From: Escherichia coli
GTDB taxonomy: Bacteria; Pseudomonadota; Gammaproteobacteria; Enterobacterales; Enterobacteriaceae
Assembly: GCF_045037415.1 (NCBI RefSeq)
Contig: NZ_CP173438.1
Strand: one strand, 5' to 3'
Length of the DNA stretch: 64,000 nucleotides
This document shows positions 48,382-64,000 of this stretch, in pieces (position 1 is the stretch's first letter; every line of letters starts with the position of its first letter). The notes beneath the pieces were generated by a model that saw nothing but the letters and a program-made list of their open reading frames with translations, made no database searches and was not told where the DNA came from. The translations under genes were made by a program, and so were the position numbers.

Positions 48382-49575
48382 ATGACAACATTACTTAACC
48401 CCTATTTTGGTGAGTTTGGCGGCATGTACGTGCCACAAATCCTGATGCCCGCTCTGCGCCAGCTGGAAGAAGCTTTTGTCAGCGCGCAAAAAGATCCTGA
48501 ATTTCAGGCTCAGTTCAACGACCTGCTGAAAAACTATGCCGGGCGTCCAACCGCGCTGACCAAATGCCAGAACATTACAGCCGGGACGAACACCACGCTG
48601 TATCTGAAGCGCGAAGATTTGCTGCACGGCGGCGCGCATAAAACTAACCAGGTACTCGGTCAGGCTTTACTGGCGAAGCGGATGGGTAAAACTGAAATTA
48701 TTGCCGAAACCGGTGCCGGTCAGCATGGCGTGGCGTCGGCCCTTGCCAGCGCCCTGCTCGGCCTGAAATGCCGTATTTATATGGGTGCCAAAGACGTTGA
48801 ACGCCAGTCGCCTAACGTTTTCCGGATGCGCTTAATGGGTGCGGAAGTGATCCCGGTGCATAGCGGTTCCGCGACCCTGAAAGATGCCTGTAATGAGGCG
48901 CTACGCGACTGGTCCGGCAGTTATGAAACCGCGCACTATATGCTGGGTACCGCAGCTGGCCCGCATCCTTACCCGACCATTGTGCGTGAGTTTCAGCGGA
49001 TGATTGGCGAAGAAACGAAAGCGCAGATTCTGGAAAGAGAAGGTCGCCTGCCGGATGCCGTTATCGCCTGTGTTGGCGGTGGTTCGAATGCCATCGGTAT
49101 GTTTGCAGATTTCATCAACGAAACCGACGTCGGCCTGATTGGTGTGGAGCCTGGCGGTCACGGTATCGAAACTGGCGAGCACGGCGCACCGTTAAAACAT
49201 GGTCGCGTGGGCATCTATTTCGGTATGAAAGCGCCGATGATGCAAACCGAAGACGGGCAAATTGAAGAGTCTTACTCCATTTCTGCCGGGCTGGATTTCC
49301 CGTCCGTCGGCCCGCAACATGCGTATCTCAACAGCACTGGACGCGCTGATTACGTGTCTATTACCGACGATGAAGCCCTGGAAGCCTTTAAAACGCTTTG
49401 CCTGCATGAAGGGATCATCCCGGCGCTGGAATCCTCCCACGCCCTGGCCCATGCGCTGAAAATGATGCGCGAAAATCCGGAAAAAGAGCAGCTACTGGTG
49501 GTTAACCTTTCCGGTCGCGGCGATAAAGACATCTTCACCGTTCACGATATTTTGAAAGCACGAGGGGAAATCTGA
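48382..49575 (+). CDS. trpB: Tryptophan synthase beta chain
   Basis: 397-aa PLP enzyme (HxGxHK region). Confidence 0.95.
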
Positions 49576-50381
49576 TGGAACGCTACGAATCTCTGTTTGC
49601 CCAGTTGAAGGAGCGCAAAGAAGGCGCATTCGTTCCTTTCGTCACCCTCGGTGATCCGGGCATTGAGCAGTCGCTGAAAATTATCGATACGCTAATTGAA
49701 GCCGGTGCTGACGCGCTGGAGTTAGGCATCCCCTTCTCCGACCCACTGGCGGATGGCCCGACGATTCAAAACGCCACACTGCGTGCCTTTGCGGCGGGTG
49801 TGACCCCGGCGCAGTGCTTTGAGATGCTGGCACTGATTCGTCAAAAACATCCGACCATTCCTGTTGGCCTGCTGATGTACGCCAACCTGGTGTTTAACAA
49901 AGGCATTGATGAGTTTTACGCCCAGTGCGAGAAAGTCGGCGTCGATTCGGTGCTGGTTGCCGATGTGCCAGTTGAAGAGTCCGCGCCCTTCCGCCAGGCC
50001 GCGTTGCGTCATAATGTCGCACCTATCTTTATTTGCCCGCCGAATGCCGACGATGATTTGCTGCGCCAGATAGCCTCCTACGGTCGTGGATACACCTATT
50101 TATTGTCACGTGCGGGCGTGACCGGCGCAGAAAACCGCGCCGCGTTACCCCTCAATCATCTGGTTGCGAAGCTGAAAGAGTACAACGCTGCACCTCCATT
50201 GCAGGGATTTGGTATTTCCGCCCCTGATCAGGTAAAAGCAGCGATTGATGCAGGAGCTGCGGGCGCGATTTCTGGTTCGGCCATCGTTAAAATCATCGAG
50301 CAACATATTAATGAGCCAGAGAAAATGCTGGCGGCACTGAAAGCTTTTGTACAACCGATGAAAGCCACTACACGACGTTAA
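49575..50381 (+). CDS. trpA: Tryptophan synthase alpha chain
   Basis: 268 aa; start overlaps the trpB stop. Confidence 0.95.
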
Positions 50382-50390
50382 TTTGAGACA

Positions 50391-50416
50391 AACCGCCAGA
50401 AAACATCTGGCGGTTT
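50391..50416 (+). terminator. trp operon terminator (trp t)
   Basis: Hairpin aaccgccaga-aaacat-ctggcggttt immediately after the trpA stop. Confidence 0.85.
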
Positions 50417-50431
50417 ATTGATGGTAAAAAA

Positions 50432-50569
50432 TTAGAAGCGGTAACCTGCAGAGAACATAAATACCCACGGGTCAAGGCGTACGTTGTCAGAATAACGCCC
50501 TGCAGGCAGCACTGCGCCGTTGGATTTATATTTCACTTCGGTATCGATATCCATGTACCAGACCGACAT
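50432..50569 (-). pseudogene. ompW: ompW 3'-terminal fragment (last 45 codons, ...VRLDPWVFMFSAGYRF), candidate prophage attachment junction
   Basis: Translation ends with the characteristic OmpW C-terminus; the frame is closed by a stop immediately upstream of codon MSVW; the 5' part of the gene is absent from the window. Confidence 0.75.
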
Positions 50570-50756
50570 GTTTTAAAAAATGCAATAAGACATTGTATCT
50601 GAAAGAAAAAACAGGATTTGAGGCGCTTTTTTATACCGTTTTTCCGTGTTTTTAACTGCCTGATTTTATTGAAATCTTTTTTAGTTTTGCAGAAAGGATT
50701 TTTTGCTCGATCGCTTTAATTTTATACATTCCTGATAACGGAAATTTTTTTGCCCG

Positions 50757-52323: not shown

Positions 52324-52992
52324 ATGGTGAAATCAATGAAAAAAAACACAGATGATGGGGCTAAAATTTACACACCACTTACCCTAAAGCTTTATGACTG
52401 GTGGGTTTTGGGAGTATCAAATCGGCTTGCATGGGGATGTCCTACAAAGGAACACCTTCTTCCACACTTTCTGGAACATGTAGGTAACAACCATCTGGAT
52501 ATTGGTGTTGGAACTGGGTTTTACCTTACTCACGTACCTGAGAGTAGTCTGATATCTTTAATGGATTTGAACGAAGCTAGCCTGAACGCGGCATCTACAA
52601 GGGCTGGGGAATCAAAAATTAAACATAAAATTAGCCATGATGTTTTTGAACCTTATCCCGCGGCGTTACATGGTCAATTTGATTCCATTTCCATGTTTTA
52701 CCTTCTTCACTGCCTGCCTGGAAATATATCTACAAAAAGCTGTGTAATACGCAATGCGGCGCAGGCCTTAACTGACGATGGAACTCTATACGGAGCCACA
52801 ATTCTTGGCGATGGAGTTGTGCACAATAGCTTCGGTCAAAAACTGATGCGCATTTACAATCAGAAAGGCATCTTTTCAAACACAAAAGATTCCGAAGAAG
52901 GCTTAACACATATACTCTCAGAGCATTTCGAGAATGTTAAAACCAAGGTTCAAGGTACTGTAGTAATGTTTTCCGCTTCAGGGAAAAAATAG
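52324..52992 (+). CDS. Class I SAM-dependent methyltransferase (222 aa), prophage moron
   Basis: Motif I LDIGVGTGFY; AT-rich coding sequence; flanked by the diverged tfa 3' repeats. Confidence 0.7.
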   Translation: MVKSMKKNTDDGAKIYTPLTLKLYDWWVLGVSNRLAWGCPTKEHLLPHFLEHVGNNHLDIGVGTGFYLTHVPESSLISLMDLNEASLNAASTRAGESKIKHKISHDVFEPYPAALHGQFDSISMFYLLHCLPGNISTKSCVIRNAAQALTDDGTLYGATILGDGVVHNSFGQKLMRIYNQKGIFSNTKDSEEGLTHILSEHFENVKTKVQGTVVMFSASGKK

Positions 52993-53139: not shown

Positions 53140-53373
53140 CACCACCAGCACGACAAGATGCCGCATACAGTGAACCAGTCAGTCCAGTTTTCAGACAACC
53201 AGTGCGTCACCTTTTTGAAGGCGCTTTAAAGCACGTTTTAATCCAGGTCGGCCTGTCCTTGTTCCGCTTAATTTATCTTCAAATATTTGTTCATATCCTG
53301 CACAAACAAGAGCGTTTCGTTGCAGATCTGTATTCTGGTCATTTGTTGATACCCTTACATAGCCAATCAGCAC
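53140..53373 (-). pseudogene. pin: DNA invertase Pin/Gin/Hin family, truncated and interrupted
   Basis: N-terminal serine recombinase signature (V)LIGYVRVSTNDQNTDLQRNAL...LKRLQKGDALVV, then in-frame stop, degenerate sequence and fusion to the tfa remnant about 75 codons in. Confidence 0.8.
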
Positions 53374-53427
53374 GCTGAATCTCCCGTCCAAAAGCACAAA
53401 TCATGCCATGCAGGCCAGAAACCGCCA

Positions 53428-53453
53428 TTATCTAAAACCTCGGTTTACGAGAA
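53428..53453. repeat. Invertase crossover site (pix/gix-like, TTATCTAAAACCTCGGTTTACGAGAA)
   Basis: 26-bp site matching the Gin/Pin crossover consensus, inverted relative to the site at 56509-56534. Confidence 0.85.
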
Positions 53454-54386
53454 CTCGGCACAAGCGGGGAGAAAATACCGTTACTCAGTACAGCGAATAC
53501 CTGGACTAATCGACAAACATTCAGCGGTGGCCTTTCTGGTGAACTATCCGGCAATGCTTCTACAGCTGCAAAATTAAAAACTGCCAGGAAAATAAGCAAT
53601 GTGGCTTTTGATGGTTCCTCCGATATCACATTAAAAGCAAGTCATGTTGGTGCGTTTGCCTTAGGGAAAACAGGAAGCACCGTTGCGAATGATAAAGCAG
53701 TTGGATGGAACTGGAGTAGCGGAGCCTATAACGCAACTATTAGTGGTGCATCAACGTTAATTATTCATTTTTATATGGGAGAAGGAAGTTGTCCTGCAGC
53801 TCAGTTTCGGATTAATTATAAAAATGGCGGTATTTTTTATCGTTCAGCCCGTGATGGTTATGGTTTTGAAGCCGACTGGTCCGAATTTTACACCACCACC
53901 AGAAAGCCTTCAGCAGGAGATGTTGGTGCACTGCCGTTATCTGGTGGTCAACTGAATGGTGCACTGGGTATCGGAACATCCAGTGCTCTTGGCGGTAATT
54001 CGATTGTATTGGGTGATAATGACACGGGCTTTAAACAAAATGGCGATGGTAATCTGGATGTTTATGCTAATAACGTCCATGTTATGCGCTTTGTCTCCGG
54101 AAGCATTCAAAGTAATAAAACCATAAATATTACAGGGCGTGTTAACCCCTCGGATTACGGTAACTTTGATTCCCGTTATGTGAAAGATGTTCGACTTGGT
54201 TCACAGCAATATTATGGAGTGAACAACTGGCAAACATGGAATTTCCAGTGCCCTTCAGGTCATGTATTGTCTGGTATTAATGTTCAGGATACAGGGTCTA
54301 ACTCTGCCGATAATATAGCGGGCGTTTATTACAGACCCGTTCAAAAGTATATAAATGGCACCTGGTATAATGTAGCGAGCGTTTAA
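53441..54386 (+). CDS. Silent alternative tail-fibre C-terminal cassette (receptor-binding domain), in frame from the crossover site
   Basis: Frame open from the crossover site ([61 protein letters not shown]...); shares ALGGNSIxLGDNDTGxKQxGDG and QKYIxGxWYNV motifs with the expressed Stf C-terminus; ORF track lists 53601..54386. Confidence 0.7.
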
Positions 54387-54387
54387 T

Positions 54388-54921
54388 ATGATGCACTTAA
54401 AGAACATAAAAGCGGGTAATGCTAAAACACTGGAACAGTATGAGTTAACAAAGAAACACGGAGTTATCTGGCTTTACTCTGAGGACGGAAAAAACTGGTA
54501 TGAGGAAGTGAAAAACTTTCAGCCAGACACCATAAAGATTGTTTACGATGAAAATAATATTATTGTTGCCATAACCAAAGATGCCTCCACACTTAACCCT
54601 GAAGGTTATAGCGTCGTTGAGATTCCTGATATTACCGCCAACCGGCGTGCTGACGACTCAGGTAAATGGATGTTTAAAGATGGCGCAGTCATTAAACGTG
54701 TATATACCGAAGAAGAGTTGCGCCTACAGACGGAAAACCAGAAAAAAATATTATTACAGCAGGCCAGAGAAAAAACGCAGTTCTGGCAAACACAGCTTAC
54801 TTTGGGGATTATCACTGATTCAGACAGACAGCAACTGATGAACTGGATGCGATACGTGCAACAGGTTGAGACAACTGATACCTCGGTTCTTCCTGTAACA
54901 TTCCCGGAACCACCAGAATAA
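54388..54921 (+). CDS. Tail fibre assembly protein Tfa (cognate to the silent cassette)
   Basis: 177 aa paralogous to the minus-strand Tfa (MxHLKNIxAGNxKT..EQYxLTKK.GVIWLY.EDGKNWY). Confidence 0.8.
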
Positions 54922-54922
54922 G

Positions 54923-54947
54923 AAAAGGCCCGTACGGGCCTTAATTT
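54923..54947. terminator. Bidirectional terminator at the centre of the invertible segment
   Basis: Hairpin aaaaggcccgtacgggcctt between the convergent tfa genes. Confidence 0.6.
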
Positions 54948-54951
54948 GTTG

Positions 54952-55479
54952 TTATTCTGGTTTCTGTGGCCATTCAGGCTTTGCAGTATCCACACGGCTG
55001 ACCATAACGCTGTAGCGTTCCCATGATTCCAGTCGTGTGCGTTCCTCATCAGTTGCCATATTCAGTCTGACAGCACGTTCCAGCGGTTGAATCACAGACT
55101 CCGCTTCGGAAAGCAAAGCGGCTTTTTGTAACTCTGCCTGCTGTTGCAGTTCCTGTTTTGTATATTCCCGCTTTACTACTTTACCATCCAGAAACTTCCA
55201 GTTTCCCGAGATATCGGCGCGACGGTTGGCTGTTATATTCGGTAACTCAACAACACTTAACCCGTCAGGGTTAAGTGTTGATACGTCTTTCTCAATACAA
55301 CGAATAATCCCCTTCTGGTCATAAGCTATTTTTAAAGTATCATCCTGAAAGTTTTTTAATTCGTCATACCAGTTTTTACCGTCTTCTGTATATAGCCAGA
55401 TAACGCCAGCTTTTTTCGTAAGCTGATACTGCTCAATGGTTTTGGGGTTTCCGGCGGTAATATTTTTCAGATGTTGCAT
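54952..55479 (-). CDS. Tail fibre assembly protein Tfa (expressed orientation)
   Basis: 175-aa ORF directly downstream of stf. Confidence 0.85.
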
Positions 55480-55494
55480 ATATTCTCCTGATGG

Positions 55495-58401
55495 CTATGC
55501 CTGTTCAACGTTATACCAGTTACCAGAAATGTATTTTTGTAGTGGTCGTGACACCATCCAGTCATCTCCATCAACCTCACCAATAATTTGCAATCCTGTT
55601 GTCACATGACCATTACCTGGTTCGCAAAGTCCTCCGCGATATAATGTGTCAGAACGTCTGCCTCCCAGACGCACATTTCTGATAAAAGAACTATTCAGGT
55701 AATCATTTAAGTTTGACCCCCAGCACCCACCAAATATATTTCCATCGGTGTTATAACGGACGCCACCCGCAATAAGAGCACCCGGTGAAATAAAGGATTT
55801 ATCGTTCGGGTTAAACTGCCATAAAGCATCATTACCGCCATCGCCACGCATATGAATACATGGAACCGGAAATCCATACTGTTCTGTCAGTAAATACCCA
55901 AAGCTGACCGCGCCGGGATAGCCCTGTCCATTGCGAATGGACAAGCCCTTAACTATCGGCACGTAAAGACCACCAGGAGTGGGATTCCAGGCAAACTGCG
56001 TCTGAACAAAAGGCGCGGTGGCATTATTCAACTGGTCTGCAAATGCGCCACTTCCATCAGGAATTATTCCCTGATGAATATATGCAACCCGCTTATAAAA
56101 ATCAGCAGATGCGGGTTGAAGCCCAAATGCCAGTTGTCCATTTGAATAGAATAAAAGGACACCGTCGCCGCCCTGTTTAATACCAGTGTCGTTATCTCCG
56201 AGAGTAATGGAATTACCGCCCAGTGCGTTATCTGTACCAAGCGCCAGCCCACCATCAATTTTGGCCCCGTGGCTGACAGATATAGCACCTGTTCTCAGAT
56301 TTATAGCGAATGGCCTTAATGGGCCGATATCACCGTTTTCGCCTTGTCCTTCAGCCGTCGGAATGAAATGAAGAAAATCTTCTGAACGACGGAAAATAAG
56401 ACCGAAGGCATCATTGAAAATTCGCAGCGCATTCACCGTGCCAATTTTCAGTTCTCCGGTCATTTTATCGCCGGAACGCTGAACGGCGTTACCAGCCTTG
56501 TTTACCGTTTCCTGTAAACCGAGGTATTCGATAACGGCGGCAACGGTCGATTTCGCAAGAATATCCCGCCCAACTTTTGTCAGGGTTGCCAGACTGGCAA
56601 CATCATTCCCCGTAAAATACGGAAACCTGTCTGCCGCAGTAGCAAGCCCGGCCAGCGCCGTCAGGGTGGCATCTTTCGGTTGCTTACCCGCAAGCGCGCT
56701 AGTCATGGTGGTCGCAAAATTCGGGTCGTTGCCCAACGCCGCAGCCAGCTCGTTCAGCGTATTCAGTGCGTCAGGCGACGAGTCCACGAGGGCAGCGATC
56801 GCAGCCATAACATAAGCCGTGCTTGCGATTTGGGTATTATTCGTTCCCTGTCGCGCAGTTGGTGTTGTTGGCGTTCCGGTCAGTGCAGGACTATTTAAGG
56901 GCGCTTTCTTGTTCGTTTCACCCATTACCGCCTTAACCGCTTTTGGCGTTGCCGCCAGTGACTCGGAAGTGCTGTTGGTCGCACTGCTGAGCTGTACTAT
57001 CCCCTTTTTCGTCGTGCTCGCATCCTCAAGCGCCACGGCGGATGCAATATCCTCTGCCCGTTTTGCCGCTGTCTCGGCGCGCGTTGCCGCGGATTCCGCC
57101 GTACTTTTGCTCTGAGCTGCCGCCGTCGCACTGCCAGCTGCCTCTGTCGCCTTCGTGGATGCCGTCGTGGCGCTGCCCTTTGCTGCTGACGCCTGTCTGG
57201 TCGCCTCATCTTTTGAAGCAGACGCAGATGATGCCGATGACGCCGCTGAACTGGCTGACGATGCGGCTGCCGCCTTAGAGGAAGCAGCATTGTCTGCTGA
57301 AGTCTTTGCATTTGTTTCAGAGGTTTTTGCTGCAGAAGCAGACCTCGCTGCTGCAGTGGCTTGCTCAGTGGCTTTGCCAGCCTTCGTTGTGGCTGTTGAA
57401 GCGGATGATGCGGCGCTTTCTGCCGATTTTCCGGCGGCGGTGGCACTGGCTGAGGCCTGCCCGGCACTTGTTGACGCGGCACTGGCAGATAATGCAGCCG
57501 CTGTTTTTGAACCTGCCGCAGCTGAGGCGCTCTGTCCCGCTGCTGTTTCAGAAGACTTAGCGTTCGTCTCGGACGTTTTTGCCGCCTTCGCGGAATTTCC
57601 TGCCGCCGTTGCCGAGGAAGCTGCACTACTGGCACTTGATGATGCATTCGTTTCTGAAGATTTCGCTGCCTCTTTTGAGGCCGCCGCACCCCGTGCCGAG
57701 GTGGCAGCTTCTGACGCCTTCGTGGTCGCTGTGGATGCAGAAGTGGCTGCCGATTTTTGTGATGCTGCGGCATTCGTTTCTGACGTTTTCGCGGCACTGG
57801 CGCTGGTAGCTGCCGCGCTTTTTGATGACTCTGCAGCAGCAGCACTTTTTGCTGCTTCACGGGCCTTTGTCGATGCCGTTCCTGCGCTGGAAGACGCTGA
57901 CTGAGCCGACGACGCGGCCTGTCCGGCTGACGTGCTGGCGGCACGTGATGAGGCTGCAGCATCGGTTGCATGAGTTGCCGCCTCGCTGGCTGATGCACTG
58001 GCATCGCTGGCTGATTTTTTCGCGGCTGCCGTATTCTGTGCAACCGCGGAGGCGTTACGTGACACCTCTTCTACCATCTGCTCAAAGCGGCGCAGTGCCT
58101 CCGGTCGTACATCATCCTCCGTCATGGCACCGAGAAAATCATTCAGCGTACCTGGTCTGGAACCTTCATAGACGGTAATGGTCCCGGCATGTGAAGGCGG
58201 AAAACCTTCAACCAGCAGGGTGACGCTGTACTGACCATGCTCAACATCCATGCTGTAACGTCCGGCTTCATCCGGATTTTCAGAGGCCACCGTGTTCACC
58301 ACCACCGTGCTGCTGGTTCGTCTGGCCTTCAGCACAATGGTGCAGTTCTGTACTGGTTTTCCTGTGCCATCTTTAAGCACGCCAGAAATTTTTACTGTCA
58401 T
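55495..58401 (-). CDS. stf: Side tail fibre protein Stf (968 aa): lambda-like constant N-terminal part fused at the crossover site to variable C-terminal cassette A
   Basis: N-terminus MTVKISGVLKDGTGKPVQNCTIVLKARR... recognised as lambda Stf-like; long Ala/Ser/Thr-rich repeat region; crossover site encodes IEYLGLQET. Confidence 0.9.
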   Translation of the reverse strand: MTVKISGVLKDGTGKPVQNCTIVLKARRTSSTVVVNTVASENPDEAGRYSMDVEHGQYSVTLLVEGFPPSHAGTITVYEGSRPGTLNDFLGAMTEDDVRPEALRRFEQMVEEVSRNASAVAQNTAAAKKSASDASASASEAATHATDAAASSRAASTSAGQAASSAQSASSSAGTASTKAREAAKSAAAAESSKSAAATSASAAKTSETNAAASQKSAATSASTATTKASEAATSARGAAASKEAAKSSETNASSSASSAASSATAAGNSAKAAKTSETNAKSSETAAGQSASAAAGSKTAAALSASAASTSAGQASASATAAGKSAESAASSASTATTKAGKATEQATAAARSASAAKTSETNAKTSADNAASSKAAAASSASSAASSASSASASKDEATRQASAAKGSATTASTKATEAAGSATAAAQSKSTAESAATRAETAAKRAEDIASAVALEDASTTKKGIVQLSSATNSTSESLAATPKAVKAVMGETNKKAPLNSPALTGTPTTPTARQGTNNTQIASTAYVMAAIAALVDSSPDALNTLNELAAALGNDPNFATTMTSALAGKQPKDATLTALAGLATAADRFPYFTGNDVASLATLTKVGRDILAKSTVAAVIEYLGLQETVNKAGNAVQRSGDKMTGELKIGTVNALRIFNDAFGLIFRRSEDFLHFIPTAEGQGENGDIGPLRPFAINLRTGAISVSHGAKIDGGLALGTDNALGGNSITLGDNDTGIKQGGDGVLLFYSNGQLAFGLQPASADFYKRVAYIHQGIIPDGSGAFADQLNNATAPFVQTQFAWNPTPGGLYVPIVKGLSIRNGQGYPGAVSFGYLLTEQYGFPVPCIHMRGDGGNDALWQFNPNDKSFISPGALIAGGVRYNTDGNIFGGCWGSNLNDYLNSSFIRNVRLGGRRSDTLYRGGLCEPGNGHVTTGLQIIGEVDGDDWMVSRPLQKYISGNWYNVEQA
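56509..56534. repeat. Invertase crossover site inside stf (TTCCTGTAAACCGAGGTATTCGATAA)
   Basis: Reverse complement matches the site at 53428-53453 at 22 of 26 positions; Gin/Pin consensus. Confidence 0.85.
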
Positions 58402-58553
58402 ACTTTTCCACCAATAAAAAAAGCCCGCAGCAGTGACGCCACGGGCTTCAGGACAGTGTAACTTTACGTTTCCTCAAACGCAGTTCACCCCATAAGGTGG
58501 ATGAACCTGCGTATCATAACAATATTTACAGAAGATAAATCGGCGTCTGTTGT

Positions 58554-58775
58554 CAGAAACGGTATCCGATACCAACAATAAATGCATCCGTTCGCCAGTC
58601 GCCACTACCGGAACCTTCATAAGCAAGGTCAATGGTCACGGATTCGGTCGGGTTAAACTGCACGCCAGCCCCCCACGCCAGAGACGTGTTGCTGTGGCGA
58701 CCGTCATCACTTCCGGTCAGCACATCGTGCGTTTTCCCCTTGTTGTCAGTTACGCGGAGATAATCCCCGGAGAAA
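58554..58775 (-). pseudogene. lom: lom 3' fragment (Lom/Ail/OmpX-family outer membrane protein, C-terminal part SGDYLRVTDNKGKTHD...GYRF)
   Basis: Translation recognised as the lambda Lom C-terminus; separated from its N-terminal part by the IS element. Confidence 0.85.
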
Positions 58776-58862
58776 GTTGCGTATTACCGTGAAGGAGATC
58801 GGTGAGTAACATCGATGGAGATCGGTTCGTGTCACTTTCACAGAACCGTTTTTAAATTACCT

Positions 58863-59612
58863 TCACTGATCTCCTTCGGTCAACGGAGATTGTATTTTCC
58901 GCATTGATTCTCCTTTAAGTTCGATCTTGATACTGCCATGAACCAGTCGATCTAGGATGGCATCCGCATGTGTGGAGTCTCCGATCATTTTGTACCAGTT
59001 TTCCACCGGCAACTGGCTCACTACGATGATTGAGCCTCGTTGGTACATCAGATCCACTATTTCCAGCAGGTCGCTACGCTGTTCTGATGAGAGAGGTTCC
59101 AGCCCCCAGTCATCCAGAAGCAGCAGATCGCTATTATTCAGCCTGGTCAAAAGTTTGCTGTATCTTCCATCAGCATGCCCCTGATAGCACTGTTCCATCA
59201 GCGCTTTAAGGCGATAATAGTAGACCTTGTATCCCTGTCGGCAGGCATTATGACCAAGTGCACATGCCAGGAACGTTTTACCGCTGCCGGTGGCCCCGGT
59301 CAGTAAAATATTTTGTTTCAGGGTTAACCAGTTTCCCTGACTGAGTGAACGGATGAGGGCCCTGTCCAGCCCTCTATTGTTACGATAATCCAGCTTTGAT
59401 AACTCAGCATTAAGTCTGAACCGTGCATGTTTGATCAGACGCTCTGCCTTCCTGTTTTCACGGCAGGTTAGTTCTTCTGCTGTCAGTAATGACAGGCGTT
59501 CTTCGAAGCCCAGCTCCTGGTATGTGCCCGGTTGAGCAAGTTGCTTTTTAAGCGCATCACGGAAGCCGGTGAGTTTAAGTGCGGTCAGTTGTTCGTAAAG
59601 ATGATTCATCAT
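58863..59612 (-). CDS. istB: IS21-family helper protein IstB (AAA+ ATPase)
   Basis: Walker A GATGSGKTF, Walker B LLLDDWG; 249 aa. Confidence 0.85.
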   Translation of the reverse strand: MMNHLYEQLTALKLTGFRDALKKQLAQPGTYQELGFEERLSLLTAEELTCRENRKAERLIKHARFRLNAELSKLDYRNNRGLDRALIRSLSQGNWLTLKQNILLTGATGSGKTFLACALGHNACRQGYKVYYYRLKALMEQCYQGHADGRYSKLLTRLNNSDLLLLDDWGLEPLSSEQRSDLLEIVDLMYQRGSIIVVSQLPVENWYKMIGDSTHADAILDRLVHGSIKIELKGESMRKIQSPLTEGDQ

Positions 59613-59623
59613 TGGATCCCGTA

Positions 59624-61165
59624 TCAGTGGTAATACTCACTGCCGCGTACGTTTTCGTGTTCCATCGTGGATAACAGATCTGGTTTTGGATCCTGAACAG
59701 GTTGTTTATCCAGACCTTTTTCCAGGATCGATTTAATACCTGACAGACGCCATACCTTTGTTTTCAGAGCTCTTGCACATGCTGCATTAAGTCTGGCTTT
59801 ACTGTATTTTTTATGAAGGTTCAGGAGTCCAAGGCAGAAGCGATAGCTTTGTTCCGGATGTGGACGAGAGTTCAGTATATGAAGCACATAACTATGAGTT
59901 TCACTGCCTATGTGCCCCGCCCATTCCAGAAGACGCTCTGGCGTCCAGGTGGCATGCTGTCGATGAGCTTCAGGCATGTGCTCGTTGCGGGTACTGTAGC
60001 CATAAGTACGCTTGCGCGGGTGCACAGCAACCTCCTGCCCCTGATTGAAGAGTCTTACCAGTTCTCCGGAGATCCATGCTTCCAGTTGCTGGCCTAACAG
60101 CGAACATGGAACCGAGTAGTAATGTTTGTCGATTTCCACGTGGTAATCGGCATGAACTCTGACTTTCTTCACCAGGGTGTAACTGTAACTGGCTTCAGGA
60201 AGAGGCTTCAGTGCGGGTTTATCAAGCTGGATGAAGAGTTCTGCACGTGAATAACCCAACTTCTGCATTATTTTGTTATTCAGTCTTTCCAGCAACTCCC
60301 GAATGCGCTGATTAAGCGATGCAAGGCTGTAGAAGATCTCATGCCTGATTCGGGCCATGATCCAGCGTTCAACAACCTGAACGCCAACTTCAGCTTTGGC
60401 TTTATCTTTCGGTTTACGTGGCCGCGCAGGCAAAACTGCGACATTATAATGCTCAAGCATCTGCTGGTAGGTAGGGTTAACGTCAGGATCATACTTACAT
60501 GCCCTGGATGTGGCGCTTTTCAGATTGTCCGGAACAACAAGTTCAGGAACGCCACCCAACCACTGGAAGCAGCGAACATGACTCATCACCCAGTCTTCAA
60601 GCTGCTGAGACCAGGTGGCCTCTGCCCATGTGTAACTTGATGCCCCGAGAACAGCTACGATGACCTGAGCAGTTCTTATTTCTCCGGTCTCAGGGTCGGT
60701 AACGCCAACGGTAGGTCCACAGTAATCAACGAAAAGTTTTTCGCCAGCTTTATGTACCTGACGCATTGATGGTGAAGTGGTTTTGAGCCATTCACGGTAC
60801 ATCCGGCAGTAATGGTTATAGCTGTAAAAACCGCCTGGATTACGCTCACAGTATTCTTCCCAGAGTAGCTGCAGCGTCACGCATTTATTACGCAGTTCCC
60901 GGTGTACTGTAGCCCAGTCAGGCAGAGAGTGCTTCTTCATCTTAACCTGGGTCTGAAGGAACGCATGTTTTAGTTTTGTATCATCCCATCCTGTAGGTAA
61001 GGGCCACTGCTTTATGCCAAGTTGAGCCGCCCGATTAGCATATCTGGATACAACGGAAGGGGAGATTGCAAGACTACGACCAATTTGTCGATGGCTGAGT
61101 CCAACACCGTATTTAAGCCTAAGAATTTCTTTAAGTTTTCTCATAGAAATTGGAACTGTTGGCAT
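59624..61165 (-). CDS. istA: IS21-family transposase IstA
   Basis: N-terminal helix-turn-helix and DDE-type integrase core upstream of istB; the 513-aa ORF is longer than typical IstA, so the true start may be internal. Confidence 0.75.
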   Translation of the reverse strand: MPTVPISMRKLKEILRLKYGVGLSHRQIGRSLAISPSVVSRYANRAAQLGIKQWPLPTGWDDTKLKHAFLQTQVKMKKHSLPDWATVHRELRNKCVTLQLLWEEYCERNPGGFYSYNHYCRMYREWLKTTSPSMRQVHKAGEKLFVDYCGPTVGVTDPETGEIRTAQVIVAVLGASSYTWAEATWSQQLEDWVMSHVRCFQWLGGVPELVVPDNLKSATSRACKYDPDVNPTYQQMLEHYNVAVLPARPRKPKDKAKAEVGVQVVERWIMARIRHEIFYSLASLNQRIRELLERLNNKIMQKLGYSRAELFIQLDKPALKPLPEASYSYTLVKKVRVHADYHVEIDKHYYSVPCSLLGQQLEAWISGELVRLFNQGQEVAVHPRKRTYGYSTRNEHMPEAHRQHATWTPERLLEWAGHIGSETHSYVLHILNSRPHPEQSYRFCLGLLNLHKKYSKARLNAACARALKTKVWRLSGIKSILEKGLDKQPVQDPKPDLLSTMEHENVRGSEYYH

Positions 61166-61357
61166 AGGTATCCTTTACCGGAATGGCAAAAGATACAGAT
61201 CAACACACCTGTGAAGTTCCAATAACATTGATGGAGATCACTGAATAACAAAATGAGTCAAAAGTGATCTCCATCGATGTTATTCAGCGATCTGTTCAAA
61301 TGTTATTACCCGATCTCGATGGAAGTTATTGAGTGATCTCCTTTCATGAAAATACGC

Positions 61358-61738
61358 AAAAGTCGACACACGGCTGTAAGCCACACCCGCCATCGCATAC
61401 GCGCTGAACCATTCATTCACGCGTACAGACGGCCCCGCCATCACGCTGAACCAGCGGTTACGCACGGAATCTTCATGCCAGCGGGTATCGCTGTAGCGCG
61501 TTTTTTGCTCATCCTCAGCATTGGCATAACTGAAGGACGTAATCAGCCCCAGCGCGTCCGTAAACTCATAACGGTATTTCACGTTAATCCCGTTCAGATC
61601 ATCACTACCGGGAACGTTCGTCGAGGCATGGAGATACCCCGCGCTCAGCGTGGACTGATGTTCTGCTGCACTCGCTGGCGTAGCAGCGGCGACCTGCCAG
61701 ACTACTGCGGACAAAATAACAGCACATAATTTACGCAT
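61358..61738 (-). pseudogene. lom: lom 5' fragment (signal peptide and first beta-strands, MRKLCAVILSAVV...AYSRVSTF)
   Basis: Recognised as the lambda Lom N-terminus; the ORF track extends it into the IS end (61280..61738). Confidence 0.85.
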
Positions 61739-61805: not shown

Positions 61806-64000
61806 TCAGCTAATCGTGATGCCTGCAGTGGCTTTCTTCATCACCACAACCAGCAAATCGCTGATACTTGCTGTGGGATACCAGTTATTTACCAGCCATG
61901 CTGACACCGAAAACTCCAGTGTCATGTGACCGTGACCGGCAGGCATATCAATAACACCACTGTAAATCAGCGTATTATCCAGCGCGGTACGGTTATAAAT
62001 TTCAGCACCGTTTTTCCGCACTATCAGACGGCATGAGGAGTAAATATCAGTATGCTCTTTCTCATGTTTAGCGCCGCTGAATGCCACCGCCGGAATAACA
62101 ATCTGCCGGTCAAACGGCTGATCGTCATAAACCCTGACGGTAATGGTTCCTGATGGCCACCGCTCCGGTGCACGGGAGTCCCGGGGGAAAGCTTTGCCCA
62201 CTGTTTTAACGAGATCGCCTTCAATCTGGTTCGCGGACAATTTTCCCAGAACCCGACAGTTCTCGTTAATCGTGACGTTGTTGAGCGTCCCGGAGTTCGC
62301 ATTCACGTTACCGCTGATATCGGCATTTTTCGCCGTCAGCCGCCCGTCCGGTGTCAGGGAAAATGCCGGAGGATTACCGCCGCTGGTAATGGTGGGAGCC
62401 GTCAGATATTTCAGGAACACTTCATTCATAAATATCTGATCGCCCTGACCAACAAACATCGGCTTTGTGTTGCCATTCGCAGGATTAATCATCGCAATCC
62501 TGTCTGCCGCCAGCAGCACCTGACTCTGCATTCCTGCTGGCGTATTCTCAATACCGGCACCGATACCCGCAATATAAAGGCGTCCGTCCTGCATCTGCTG
62601 CAGTTTCACGGCCCACATGCTGTTCAGGTTATTATTTGTATCAACCTGAACTTTCTGTATCTGCTGGATTGCCGCACTCTGATTTTCCAGTTTTTTATTG
62701 ACGGTCTGCGTGATTTCATTGCTGACATTCGTAATGGACGTCCTGATTTCAGCCAGGTCCGGCGCAAGCTGACCGTTATCAATCTGCGTCCACAGCTCCT
62801 GGGCCAGATGTGTTTTCCCGATTTCTCCTTTGAAAAAATCCAGGTAACCTTCCGCATCATCGCTCGCCCGACCGACAGCCTCCACGAATGCCGATTTGCC
62901 AACAGTATTCACACTGCGGATATAAAAATAATAATCATGGCCCGGTTTGATATTGATACTGGCAGCTATCCAGTACAGCGCCGAGCCAAGATAGCGGGCT
63001 GCGGTTTCAACCTGCCTGATATCCGCAATCCGCTTTTCCGAGAACCAGAACTCAAACTGTACCGTCGGGTCATAAACGGCAAGATGTGGCGTTGCGGTTA
63101 TCTGAAAATAGCCCGGCGTCAGCTCAATCCGCGACGGTGCTGCCGGTGCGGCAATCCGGAAGGTGGTGGTGGCAGGTTCACCCTGCTGGCCATAGCTGTT
63201 TATCGCCCGCACCGTCAGGGTGTATTCCCCGAGCGGCAGGCCGCTGAAACGGTGCTCCGTGTCTGCGGTGATGGCGGTGGTCACCAGTCTGGCATCCGTT
63301 CCCTTACCACTGGTCAGGCGCAGACTGAAGCGCACACCCTTCACCACCCGCGGCGTGTCCCATTTCGCCTGCGCCAGATACTGGCCGTCAGCTGCGCTCA
63401 CCTCCACCGTCAGGTGCTGCACTGCCGGTGGGATGACGCTGTTCAGGGAACCTGACTGCGGCTCAAAGCGGGCACCGTTATCCACGATGGCTTCTTTTTC
63501 CGGTACGTGCTGCACCGCCGTGATGGCAAAGGTGCCGTCCGTGTTTTCCCGGATGGAGACACAGCGGAACAGGCGACGGCGCAGTGACGGCAGGGAGAGT
63601 CCCCACACCCCGTATGTCTCCACACCATCAGGCAGGGTACTGACCTGTATCCGGTCCGGCGCGGGGTGTGCGGTGATGTCCACACTCACCGGCTTACCGC
63701 TGCCGTTAATCAGGTTCACCGCCGATGTACCTGTCTCCGGCAGGGTAACCTCACGGTCCAGCGTCAGGGTGCGGGTGGCAGCATCAATGGACAGGACACG
63801 TCCGCCGGTCAGGGTCCCGGCATAGTCATTATCACAGATTTCAATAATGTCACCGGGTGTGTGCCGCAGCCCCTGAACCCGAGCGTGAAATCCACCGTCT
63901 GCGTTTCCAGCAGTTCGGTCTTTATCACCCACAGTCCGGCACGGTGGGCCTGACCGCGGCTGGTACAGCCGAACGCGTCCATCTTCAGCAGGTTGCGTCC
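61806..64000 (-). CDS. J: Tail tip host-specificity protein J, 3' portion (gene continues beyond the window end)
   Basis: Long ORF upstream of lom in lambda gene order, resembling the central and C-terminal regions of lambda J; frame still open at the window edge. Confidence 0.8.

What the first reader, a model, noticed from the sequence alone, without database searches (positions are those of the whole stretch)
56500..57950. Extended Ala/Ser/Thr-rich low-complexity tract in stf
The central part of Stf is built from imperfect repeats (SETNA..., AAKTSETNAKSSETAAGQSASAA... and similar). These produce long spurious ORFs on the opposite strand (57155-57904) and in an alternative frame (56997-58043). 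Tracts like this are prone to repeat-number variation and recombination between prophages, and they can confuse gene callers.
Basis: seen in the sequence. Interest (0 to 1): 0.2.

Follow-up and report, generated by a model that had tools for sequence, protein, structure and literature searches.

The report
Alanine-serine coiled-coil rod of Stf
The Ala/Ser/Thr-rich stretch is the already-described coiled-coil shaft of a lambda-type prophage side tail fibre, here 49 unbroken seven-residue repeats long; it is an ordinary, known feature, not a DNA repeat or a hidden gene.

Summary
The tract is real, but it lies at about 57025-58095 on the minus strand (Stf residues 103-459), not at 56500-57950. 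It is not plain low complexity. It consists of 49 consecutive heptads with consensus A-[S/T]-x-A-x-[S/T]-S, led in by two canonical hydrophobic heptads, with no register break. Residue identity at every lag that is a multiple of 7 exceeds composition shuffles by z = 7-10; no other lag is enriched.

At the DNA level there is no tandem repeat. The longest exact repeat is 14 nt, which is no more than chance.

The protein is a lambda Stf/StfR homologue: 83% identical to Ur-lambda Stf and 88% to K-12 StfR. The tract corresponds to the published "PCoil" or proximal coiled-coil domain, which has been shown to be trimeric and alpha-helical in a homologue.

Relatives carry about 2 to 49 heptads, and nearly all indels are multiples of 7 residues. 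Lambda Stf is exactly 15 heptads shorter.

Both long off-frame ORFs exist, but they are by-products. 69% of substitutions fall on stf third codon positions, relatives have stops in those frames, and RefSeq annotates only stf.

Verdict: already known, low interest. A more notable neighbour is the Gin/Pin-type invertible tail-fibre segment at 53422-56540.

The parts
55495..58401 (-). stf, the side tail fibre gene, 968 aa, intact
   Evidence: ORF. Pfam phage_tail_N at E = 5e-70. Residues 1-94 match lambda Stf chain 9e7m_Ta at E = 3e-47. 100% identical to RefSeq WP_071550361.1 in strain 4/1-1.
58096..58401 (-). N-terminal tail-attachment (collar) domain plus linker, residues 1-102
   Evidence: The domain boundaries follow the Ur-lambda paper, PMC12617516.
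57025..58095 (-). Heptad coiled-coil rod, residues 103-459. Two lead-in heptads have L/F/V at the a/d positions. They are followed by 49 Ala/Ser heptads (residues 117-459, nt 57025-58053).
   Evidence: Autocorrelation. Heptad table: position 1 is Ala in 35/50, position 4 is Ala in 47/49, position 7 is Ser in 37/50. A register-tracking Viterbi scan gives a single-register segment, residues 114-457. The AlphaFold2 monomer is helical over residues 98-456.
57307..57789 (-). Span holding the four K[TS]SETNA motif copies (57769-57789, 57643-57663, 57559-57579, 57307-57327). These are the most recognisable recurring heptad pair.
   Evidence: DNA repeat family D1 (33 nt, 64-82% identity). The 14-nt exact repeat TCAGAAACGAATGC lies at 57770-57783 and 57644-57657.
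56842..57024 (-). Hinge and conserved KGIVQLSSATNSTSE...PKAVK segment directly after the rod, residues 460-520
   Evidence: Matches Mu tail fibre S (5yvq_A) residues 91-150. Low-confidence, non-helical stretch in the AlphaFold2 model. Hinge in the lambda model.
56997..58043 (-). Spurious ORF in the +1 frame of stf, 348 aa, Arg/Pro/Gln-rich
   Evidence: The frame has no stop inside the tract in the window, but one stop in 8 of 25 distinct relatives. Substitutions fall on its second codon position.
57155..57904 (+). Spurious antisense ORF, 249 aa, Ala/Asp/Phe/Glu-rich
   Evidence: The two non-aligned antisense frames have 1-4 stops within the tract in the window and all relatives. It is not annotated in RefSeq.
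56509..56540 (.). Inverted-repeat crossover site inside stf, at the junction of the constant and variable parts (residues ~621-631). Its partner is at 53422-53453.
   Evidence: Inverted repeat I2. Inversion between strains is shown.

Best explanation
The tract encodes the proximal shaft of a lambda-type side tail fibre. Three Stf chains are inferred to form a parallel, left-handed alpha-helical coiled coil over residues ~103-459. Alanine fills the core a and d positions and serine or threonine line the flanks.

At about 0.1485 nm per residue, this gives a thin rod of roughly 53 nm. The rod holds the receptor-binding distal part away from the N-terminal collar domain that anchors the fibre to the tail.

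The unusual composition follows from this design. Small residues at every core position give an Ala/Ser/Thr-rich sequence with almost no Leu, Ile, Val, Met or Phe. A stop in the +1 frame needs T at codon position 2, and such codons are nearly absent, so that frame stays open. The same bias leaves few stops in two antisense frames. The long off-frame ORFs are therefore by-products.

Rod length evolves in whole heptads, by recombination or deletion between short in-phase homologies, because any other indel would break the register.

Shown here: the periodicity, the unbroken register, homology to lambda Stf and StfR, the heptad-quantised indels, selection on the stf frame, and predicted helicity. 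Taken from the literature: the alpha-helical trimer state of the homologous PCoil domain and the lambda fibre model. Inferred: the trimeric state of this protein and the role of the rod as a spacer.
For: - Strict 7-residue periodicity, z = 7-10 at all 17 multiples of 7 and no enrichment at any other lag.
- Ala occupies 96% of d positions and 70% of a positions. The lead-in a/d residues are L103/F106, V110/V113 and A117/V120.
- One uninterrupted register over 344 residues.
- The AlphaFold2 monomer is helical from residue 98 to 456, with pLDDT about 70-75.
- 82.9% identity to Ur-lambda Stf with a single 105-aa (15-heptad) gap. 87.7% identity to K-12 StfR with no gap in the tract.
- Indels against relatives are 7, 7, 35, 35, 56, 105, 112 and 224 aa.
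- 89 of 90 family representatives keep one register.
- 802 of 1162 substitutions in 25 relatives fall on stf codon position 3.
[quoted passage not shown] It found the domain trimeric and alpha-helical by CD, SEC-MALLS and EM.
- PMC12617516 assigns lambda Stf residues 102-393 to a proximal coiled-coil domain.
- Weak sequence matches to the T7 gp17 shaft and to fibre protein 9cod_A, which share SE[TV]NA-type motifs.
Against: - No solved structure covers the tract. PDB entries stop at Stf residue 94.
- The AlphaFold2 run was a monomer with moderate confidence. It folds the helix back on itself at residues ~275-280, which is probably an artefact.
- A core made almost only of Ala is atypical for trimeric coiled coils. 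The oligomer state and geometry of this 49-heptad version are therefore extrapolated from a homologue with a much shorter PCoil (coiled-coil predictions there span residues ~101-245).
- Two relatives carry out-of-phase indels: 1 aa in L012/L013 and 220 aa in L069. Register continuity is therefore preferred but not absolute.
- The register scan used a profile built from the window itself. This may under-detect tracts in distant relatives.
Confidence: 0.9

Rival explanations
1. The tract is an intrinsically disordered, low-complexity Ala/Ser/Thr linker without defined structure. Its repetitiveness is only compositional.
For: Extreme composition: A, S and T together make up 74% of residues. Pfam has no model for it. 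AlphaFold2 confidence is only about 70.
Against: Composition-preserving shuffles never approach the observed 7-residue periodicity. Ala occupies position 4 in 47 of 49 heptads. Indels among relatives are multiples of 7. The homologous domain is alpha-helical and trimeric by experiment (PMC3368898).
Confidence: 0.04
2. The tract is a hypervariable DNA tandem repeat (a contingency or VNTR-like locus). Its copy number changes rapidly by replication slippage and so varies fibre length within populations.
For: Tract length differs among related prophages. One 21-nt deletion lies between 11-nt direct repeats spaced 21 nt apart (L005; repeat family D7).
Against: Tandem Repeats Finder finds no period-21 array. 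The longest exact repeat is 14 nt, within codon-shuffle expectation, p = 0.17. All four Ala codons and all six Ser codons are used. The length is identical in relatives that differ by up to 11.7% in DNA, and in K-12 StfR.
Confidence: 0.04
3. One of the long off-frame ORFs (56997..58043 on the minus strand, or 57155..57904 on the plus strand) is a real overlapping gene.
For: The ORFs are 348 and 249 codons long. The +1 frame has no stop across the whole tract in the window and in 17 of 25 relatives.
Against: 69% of substitutions fall on stf third positions, which are second positions of the +1 frame and so almost always non-synonymous there. 8 of 25 relatives have a stop in the +1 frame, and all have 1-4 stops in the two non-aligned antisense frames. 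The scarcity of Leu/Ile/Val/Met/Phe codons, the only ones that put T at codon position 2, explains why the +1 frame stays open (only 5 such residues in the tract). The predicted products are Arg/Pro/Gln-rich or Ala/Asp/Phe-rich low-complexity strings. RefSeq annotates neither ORF.
Confidence: 0.01

Closest known systems
Proximal coiled-coil domain of bacteriophage Ur-lambda side tail fibre Stf (PMC12617516; UniProt P03764 as cited in PMC3368898)
   Same: Same N-terminal collar domain: residues 1-94 match PDB 9e7m at E = 3e-47. Same heptad consensus and register, the same SETNA motifs, and the same hinge sequence after the rod. 82.9% identity over 455 aligned residues. Same gene order of J, lom, stf, tfa.
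   Different: The window's rod is exactly 105 residues (15 heptads, about 15.6 nm) longer. The distal half is not lambda-like: residues 624-968 are 99% identical to the tail fibre of Mu-like Yersinia phages, and they sit in an invertible segment.
StfR of the Rac prophage, E. coli K-12
   Same: Identical tract length (344 residues by the same scan) and register. 87.7% protein identity over the first ~530 residues, and about 90% DNA identity in one ungapped piece over nt 1-1469.
   Different: StfR is 1120 aa with a different C-terminal part, and it has an intact pinR next to it.
PCoil domain of E. coli prophage collagen-like tail fibre proteins EPclA/EPclB (Ghosh et al. 2012, PMC3368898)
   Same: It follows the same PfN (PF08400) domain. 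It has the same Ala-X-X-Ala/Ser-X-X-Ser heptad, is almost devoid of Leu/Ile, and shows length differences in multiples of seven. [quoted passage not shown]
   Different: PCoil in EPclA is much shorter: coiled-coil predictions span residues ~101-245 and the measured length is about 16 nm. It is followed by a collagen triple helix. The window's tract is about three times longer and leads into a Mu/P2-type fibre.
Coiled-coil shaft of T7 tail fibre gp17 (PDB 7boz, 7ey7) and fibre protein 9cod_A
   Same: Weak local similarity that includes Ala/Ser heptads and SE[TV]NA motifs.
   Different: E-values are only 0.01-0.04, so homology is not established. The N-terminal attachment domains differ.

Membership tests
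Lambda Stf / StfR side tail fibre family | N-terminal prophage tail fibre domain (PF08400) that forms the collar on the tail | tested here: met
   PF08400 over residues 1-134, E = 5.2e-70. Residues 1-94 align to 9e7m_Ta at E = 2.9e-47.
Lambda Stf / StfR side tail fibre family | Full-length similarity of the constant part to lambda Stf | tested here: met
   82.9% identity over 455 aligned residues with one gap.
Lambda Stf / StfR side tail fibre family | Gene position downstream of J and lom, followed by a tail fibre assembly gene | tested here: met
   J C-terminus at 61806..63932, lom fragments, stf, then tfa at 54952..55479 with PF02413.
PCoil / proximal coiled-coil rod | Heptad periodicity Ala-x-x-Ala/Ser-x-x-Ser directly after the N-terminal domain | tested here: met
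   z = 7-10 at all multiples of 7. Column composition.
PCoil / proximal coiled-coil rod | Length differences among members in multiples of seven residues | tested here: met
   Indels of 7, 35, 56, 105, 112 and 224 aa. The exceptions are 1 aa and 220 aa.
PCoil / proximal coiled-coil rod | Alpha-helical conformation | tested here: met
   Prediction only: the AlphaFold2 monomer is helical over residues 98-456 with pLDDT ~70. Experimental CD exists for a homologue.
PCoil / proximal coiled-coil rod | Parallel trimer | not testable with these tools
   No multimer prediction or experiment was available. The trimer is shown for EPclA PfN-PCoil by SEC-MALLS and modelled for lambda Stf.
DNA tandem repeat / VNTR | Head-to-tail DNA copies with high identity | tested here: not met
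   Tandem Repeats Finder gives only two arrays of 26-29 nt. The longest exact repeat is 14 nt, p = 0.17 against codon shuffles.
Phage tail fibre repeat (Pfam Phage_fiber_2) or collagen-like repeat fibres | Matches to those repeat models, or a Gly-X-Y pattern | tested here: not met
   Pfam lists only PF08400 and a sub-threshold PF13620. Gly makes up 11 of 346 tract residues.
Gin/Pin/Cin-type invertible tail fibre segment (neighbouring feature) | Inverted-repeat crossover sites that flank two opposed sets of variable fibre end plus tfa, with inversion observed | tested here: met
   Inverted repeats at 53422-53453 and 56509-56540. Opposed gene sets. Strain R7 has the same segment inverted between 100% identical flanks.
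Gin/Pin/Cin-type invertible tail fibre segment (neighbouring feature) | Functional serine invertase gene next to the segment | tested here: not met
   Only a truncated recombinase reading frame with in-frame stops at 53194..53373. RefSeq annotates it as a pseudogene.

The most novel reading that the evidence does not exclude
Heptad number may act as a selected, quantised ruler. In-register recombination between heptads would let lambdoid prophages tune the reach of the side fibre, from about 2 to 49 heptads (up to roughly 50 nm), to match the thickness of the host's O-antigen or capsule layer. The window's 49-heptad class, shared with K-12 StfR, would sit at the upper limit. If so, rod length would be a host-range determinant independent of the receptor-binding tip. 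The all-alanine, stutter-free coiled coil would also be a natural scaffold whose length can be set in 1-nm steps.
Probability: 0.2. Interest if true: 0.4.

Novelty: already known. Interest (0 to 1): 0.12.

Why it matters
This matters mainly for annotation hygiene.
- The tract should be labelled as the coiled-coil shaft of Stf, not as low complexity.
- The two long off-frame ORFs should be ignored.
- Fragmentary "partial" tail fibre proteins in draft assemblies may stem from this multi-copy region. A match to this stf occurs in 5043 of 5426 complete E. coli genomes, with a median of 2 and up to 15 places per genome.

The constant N-terminal part of lambda Stf has been fused to foreign receptor-binding ends to retarget delivery particles (PMC11338833). 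Designers of such chimeras may therefore find it useful that the rod tolerates changes in whole heptads and varies from about 2 to 49 heptads in nature.

None of this changes current understanding.

Tried and rejected
- DNA tandem repeat: Tandem Repeats Finder and exact or inexact repeat searches over 55-60 kb found nothing beyond short imperfect matches. Rejected.
- Higher-order repeat units (14, 28, 42 ... aa): tested against a shuffle that preserves heptad columns. Support is marginal, p = 0.03 for the count of 14-aa windows with at least 10 identities and p = 0.11 for the maximum. There is recurring motif usage (K[TS]SETNA four times) but no clear super-repeat.
- Overlapping gene in the off-frame ORFs: rejected on the substitution pattern and on stops in relatives.
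- Solved structure for the tract: none. PDB hits cover only Stf residues 1-94, the Mu/P2-type distal parts, and weak matches to the T7 gp17 and 9cod shafts.
- First protein search with the N-domain alone: it returned only 115-227-aa fragments and could not be used for length comparison. It was replaced by viral contigs and cluster representatives.
- Crossover reconstruction at the large indels: only the 21-nt L005 deletion has a clean direct-repeat junction. The 105-224-aa junctions show short homologies in mosaic backgrounds, so the individual events cannot be reconstructed.
- AlphaFold2 monomer: it confirms helicity, but the fold-back hairpin is not informative about the assembled fibre. No fold search was run on it.
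Full report
**What is at the coordinates.** The region lies inside one intact gene, 55495..58401 on the minus strand, 968 codons.
- The product carries the Pfam prophage tail fibre N-terminal domain over residues 1-134, E = 5e-70.
- Its first 94 residues align to the lambda Stf collar chain in PDB 9e7m at E = 3e-47.
- The gene lies downstream of a J-type tail tip gene and lom, and upstream of a tail fibre assembly gene.
- The DNA is 100% identical to an annotated "prophage tail fiber N-terminal domain-containing protein" in E. coli strains 4/1-1 and SURV0398.

**Where the tract really is.** A sliding count of Ala+Ser+Thr stays at or above 0.6 from residue ~111 to ~450 and drops below 0.5 outside.
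- In nucleotides the tract is about 57025-58060.
- The finding's 56500-57950 includes about 520 nt of ordinary conserved Stf sequence at the low end and misses about 110 nt at the high end.
- Composition over residues 115-460 is 134 Ala, 82 Ser, 39 Thr, 25 Lys and 18 Glu. Only five residues are Val, Leu or Ile.

**Is it repetitive beyond composition?** Yes, but in a specific way.
- Residue identity at lag k was compared with 1000 composition-preserving shuffles. Every multiple of 7 from 7 to 119 gives 0.38-0.47 identity against 0.23 expected, z = 6.9-10.4.
- No other lag is enriched, and many are depleted. The 95th percentile of the maximum z in the shuffles is 3.4.
- Written in rows of seven, residues 117-459 form 49 consecutive heptads. 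Position 1 is Ala in 35 of 50 rows (otherwise mostly Lys or Glu). Position 4 is Ala in 47 of 49 (otherwise Val). Position 7 is Ser in 37 of 50. Positions 2 and 6 are mostly Ser or Thr.
- The two preceding heptads carry L103/F106 and V110/V113 at the same two positions. The Ala/Ser run therefore continues a canonical a/d hydrophobic pattern.
- A register-tracking Viterbi scan gives one segment, residues 114-457, with no phase shift.

**What it is not.** It is not a DNA tandem repeat.
- Tandem Repeats Finder reports only two arrays of 26-29 nt.
- The direct-repeat families are 15-33 nt at 61-82% identity.
- The longest exact repeat is 14 nt (TCAGAAACGAATGC, encoding SETNA). Codon-shuffled controls average 12.2 nt, p = 0.17.
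- DNA identity is raised at lags that are multiples of 21 (0.437 against 0.367 at other multiples of 3, mean z = 4.0). This only reflects the protein periodicity, since all Ala, Ser and Thr codons are used.
- Repeats longer than the heptad are weakly supported. Against a shuffle that keeps each heptad column, the count of 14-residue windows with at least 10 identities is 20 against 9.2 ± 4.2 (p = 0.026). The maximum window identity is not significant, p = 0.11.
- The recognisable recurring element is AAK[TS]SETNA, four copies at spacings of 42, 28 and 84 residues. SASTATTKA occurs twice, 112 residues apart.

**The off-frame ORFs.** Both exist as stated.
- In the tract, the +1 frame has no stop and the two non-aligned antisense frames have three each. 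The codon-aligned antisense frame has 30.
- The open +1 frame follows from the composition. A stop in that frame needs T at codon position 2, and only Leu, Ile, Val, Met and Phe codons supply it. The tract nearly lacks these residues. This step is my inference from the genetic code.
- In 25 distinct relatives with the same tract length, 802 of 1162 substitutions fall on stf codon position 3.
- 8 of the 25 relatives have a stop in the +1 frame, and the two non-aligned antisense frames always have 1-4 stops.
- RefSeq annotates only stf over the identical sequence.

The ORFs are by-products, and PGAP at least was not misled.

**Relatives and length variation.**
- Window against Ur-lambda Stf: 82.9% identity over 455 aligned residues, with a single 105-residue gap, which is exactly 15 heptads.
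- Window against K-12 StfR: 87.7% identity with no gap in the tract.
- In 77 Stf genes from viral contigs, whole-protein lengths run from 425 to 1680 aa among complete genes, mostly because of different distal modules.
- Tract lengths in those contigs fall in classes of about 344 (the commonest, and the window's class), 337, 239, 232, 214, 126 and 116 residues.
- Pairwise alignments to the window place tract gaps of 7, 7, 35, 35, 56, 105, 112 and 224 residues. There are two exceptions, a single-Ala deletion in L012/L013 and a 220-residue gap in L069.
- Among 90 representatives of clusters at 50% identity that have the N-domain and a complete tract, the tract spans about 2 to 49 heptads. 89 of the 90 keep a single register, and none exceeds the window's class. 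The scan profile was built from the window, so lengths in distant members may be underestimated.
- At the DNA level, the 21-nt L005 deletion lies between two TCAGCCAGCGA copies 21 nt apart. The larger junctions show only short in-phase homologies in mosaic backgrounds.
- The tract keeps exactly the same length in relatives up to 11.7% divergent in DNA.

Variation is therefore real on evolutionary time scales, and quantised, but the tract is not hypermutable.

**Mechanism.**
- The AlphaFold2 monomer model, built on a 16-sequence alignment, is helical from residue 98 to 456 with pLDDT about 70-75. It has one fold-back break at ~275-280 and becomes low-confidence coil at the hinge that follows.
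- Ghosh et al. 2012 (PMC3368898) named the low-complexity region after the same N-terminal domain "PCoil". [quoted passage not shown] - The 2025 Ur-lambda study (PMC12617516) models each side fibre as a trimer. Its parts are the collar domain (residues 1-91), a linker, a proximal coiled-coil domain (102-393), a hinge and a distal domain. Only the collar is resolved at atomic level.
- By homology, the window's tract is the same rod. It has 357 residues in register, about 53 nm at 0.1485 nm per residue, and is about 15.6 nm longer than lambda's.
- The trimer state and the spacer role for this particular protein are inferred, not tested.

**Comparison and novelty.** All defining features of the Stf family and of the PCoil/proximal coiled-coil rod that could be tested are met. 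Only the oligomeric state could not be tested.
- Features of a DNA tandem repeat, of Phage_fiber_2 repeats and of collagen-like repeats are not met.
- The allele is already in RefSeq, and the domain type, its periodicity and its heptad-quantised variation are already published.
- The only modest additions here are the exact 49-heptad, stutter-free register, the observation that this class is the longest seen among the representatives, and the code-based explanation for the open +1 frame.

**Other things seen nearby.**
- The finding's lower coordinate almost coincides with a recombination site. Inverted repeats at 53422-53453 and 56509-56540 (32 nt, 84% complementary) bracket a 3.1-kb segment.
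- That segment carries the variable Stf end plus tfa on the minus strand, and an alternative tfa plus variable end on the plus strand.
- Strain R7 has the same prophage with 100% identical flanks and this segment inverted (99.7% identity), giving a 941-aa Stf.
- The adjacent invertase is a pseudogene in both strains.
- lom is split by ISEc12.
- The prophage abuts trpA, next to a partial ompW annotated as a pseudogene.

Noticed in passing
window 53422-56540 (inverted repeats 53422-53453 and 56509-56540): A Gin/Pin-type invertible tail fibre segment. It carries the variable Stf end (55495-56508) plus tfa (54952-55479) on the minus strand, and an alternative tfa (54388-54921) plus variable end (~53454-54386) on the plus strand. 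E. coli strain R7 carries the same prophage with 100% identical flanks and this exact segment in the opposite orientation (99.7% identity), which gives a 941-aa Stf.
   Followed up: partly
window 53194-53373 (-): The serine invertase next to the invertible segment is a truncated pseudogene: LIGYVRVSTNDQNTDLQRNAL... with in-frame stops, followed by a tfa fragment. Both orientations of the segment nevertheless occur in nature. Inversion must therefore have been catalysed in trans by another prophage's invertase, or have happened before the decay.
   Followed up: partly
window 58553-61738: An ISEc12 (IS21 family) element, with istA at 59624-61165 and istB at 58863-59609, is inserted in lom. The lom fragments lie at 61301-61738 and 58553-58780, directly upstream of stf.
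   Followed up: partly
window 55495-56532 (Stf residues 624-968): The distal receptor-binding part is 99% identical at protein level to the tail fibre of the Yersinia pestis phages vB_YpM_3 and vB_YpM_23, which I take to be Mu-like, and about 52% identical to P2 gpH. This points to module exchange between lambdoid prophages and myophages.
   Followed up: no
window 48382-50572: trpB and trpA sit next to an ompW remnant at ~50432-50572. The prophage end appears to lie in or beside a disrupted ompW. Degraded tail fibre assembly fragments and a SAM methyltransferase (52324-52992) lie in between.
   Followed up: no
proteins P0001-P0120: All 120 best database hits to the Stf N-domain are fragments of 115-227 aa that end inside the tract. 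Many are labelled partial, come from short contigs, and belong to clusters of hundreds to thousands of members. This suggests short-read assemblies often break here, although the tool's ranking may contribute.
   Followed up: partly
proteins P0202, P0230, P0232, P0241, P0242: Very large proteins of 2500-3900 aa contain internal stretches similar to the Ala/Ser heptad tract, for example P0241 residues 1220-1539 against query residues 104-413. Their nature was not examined.
   Followed up: no
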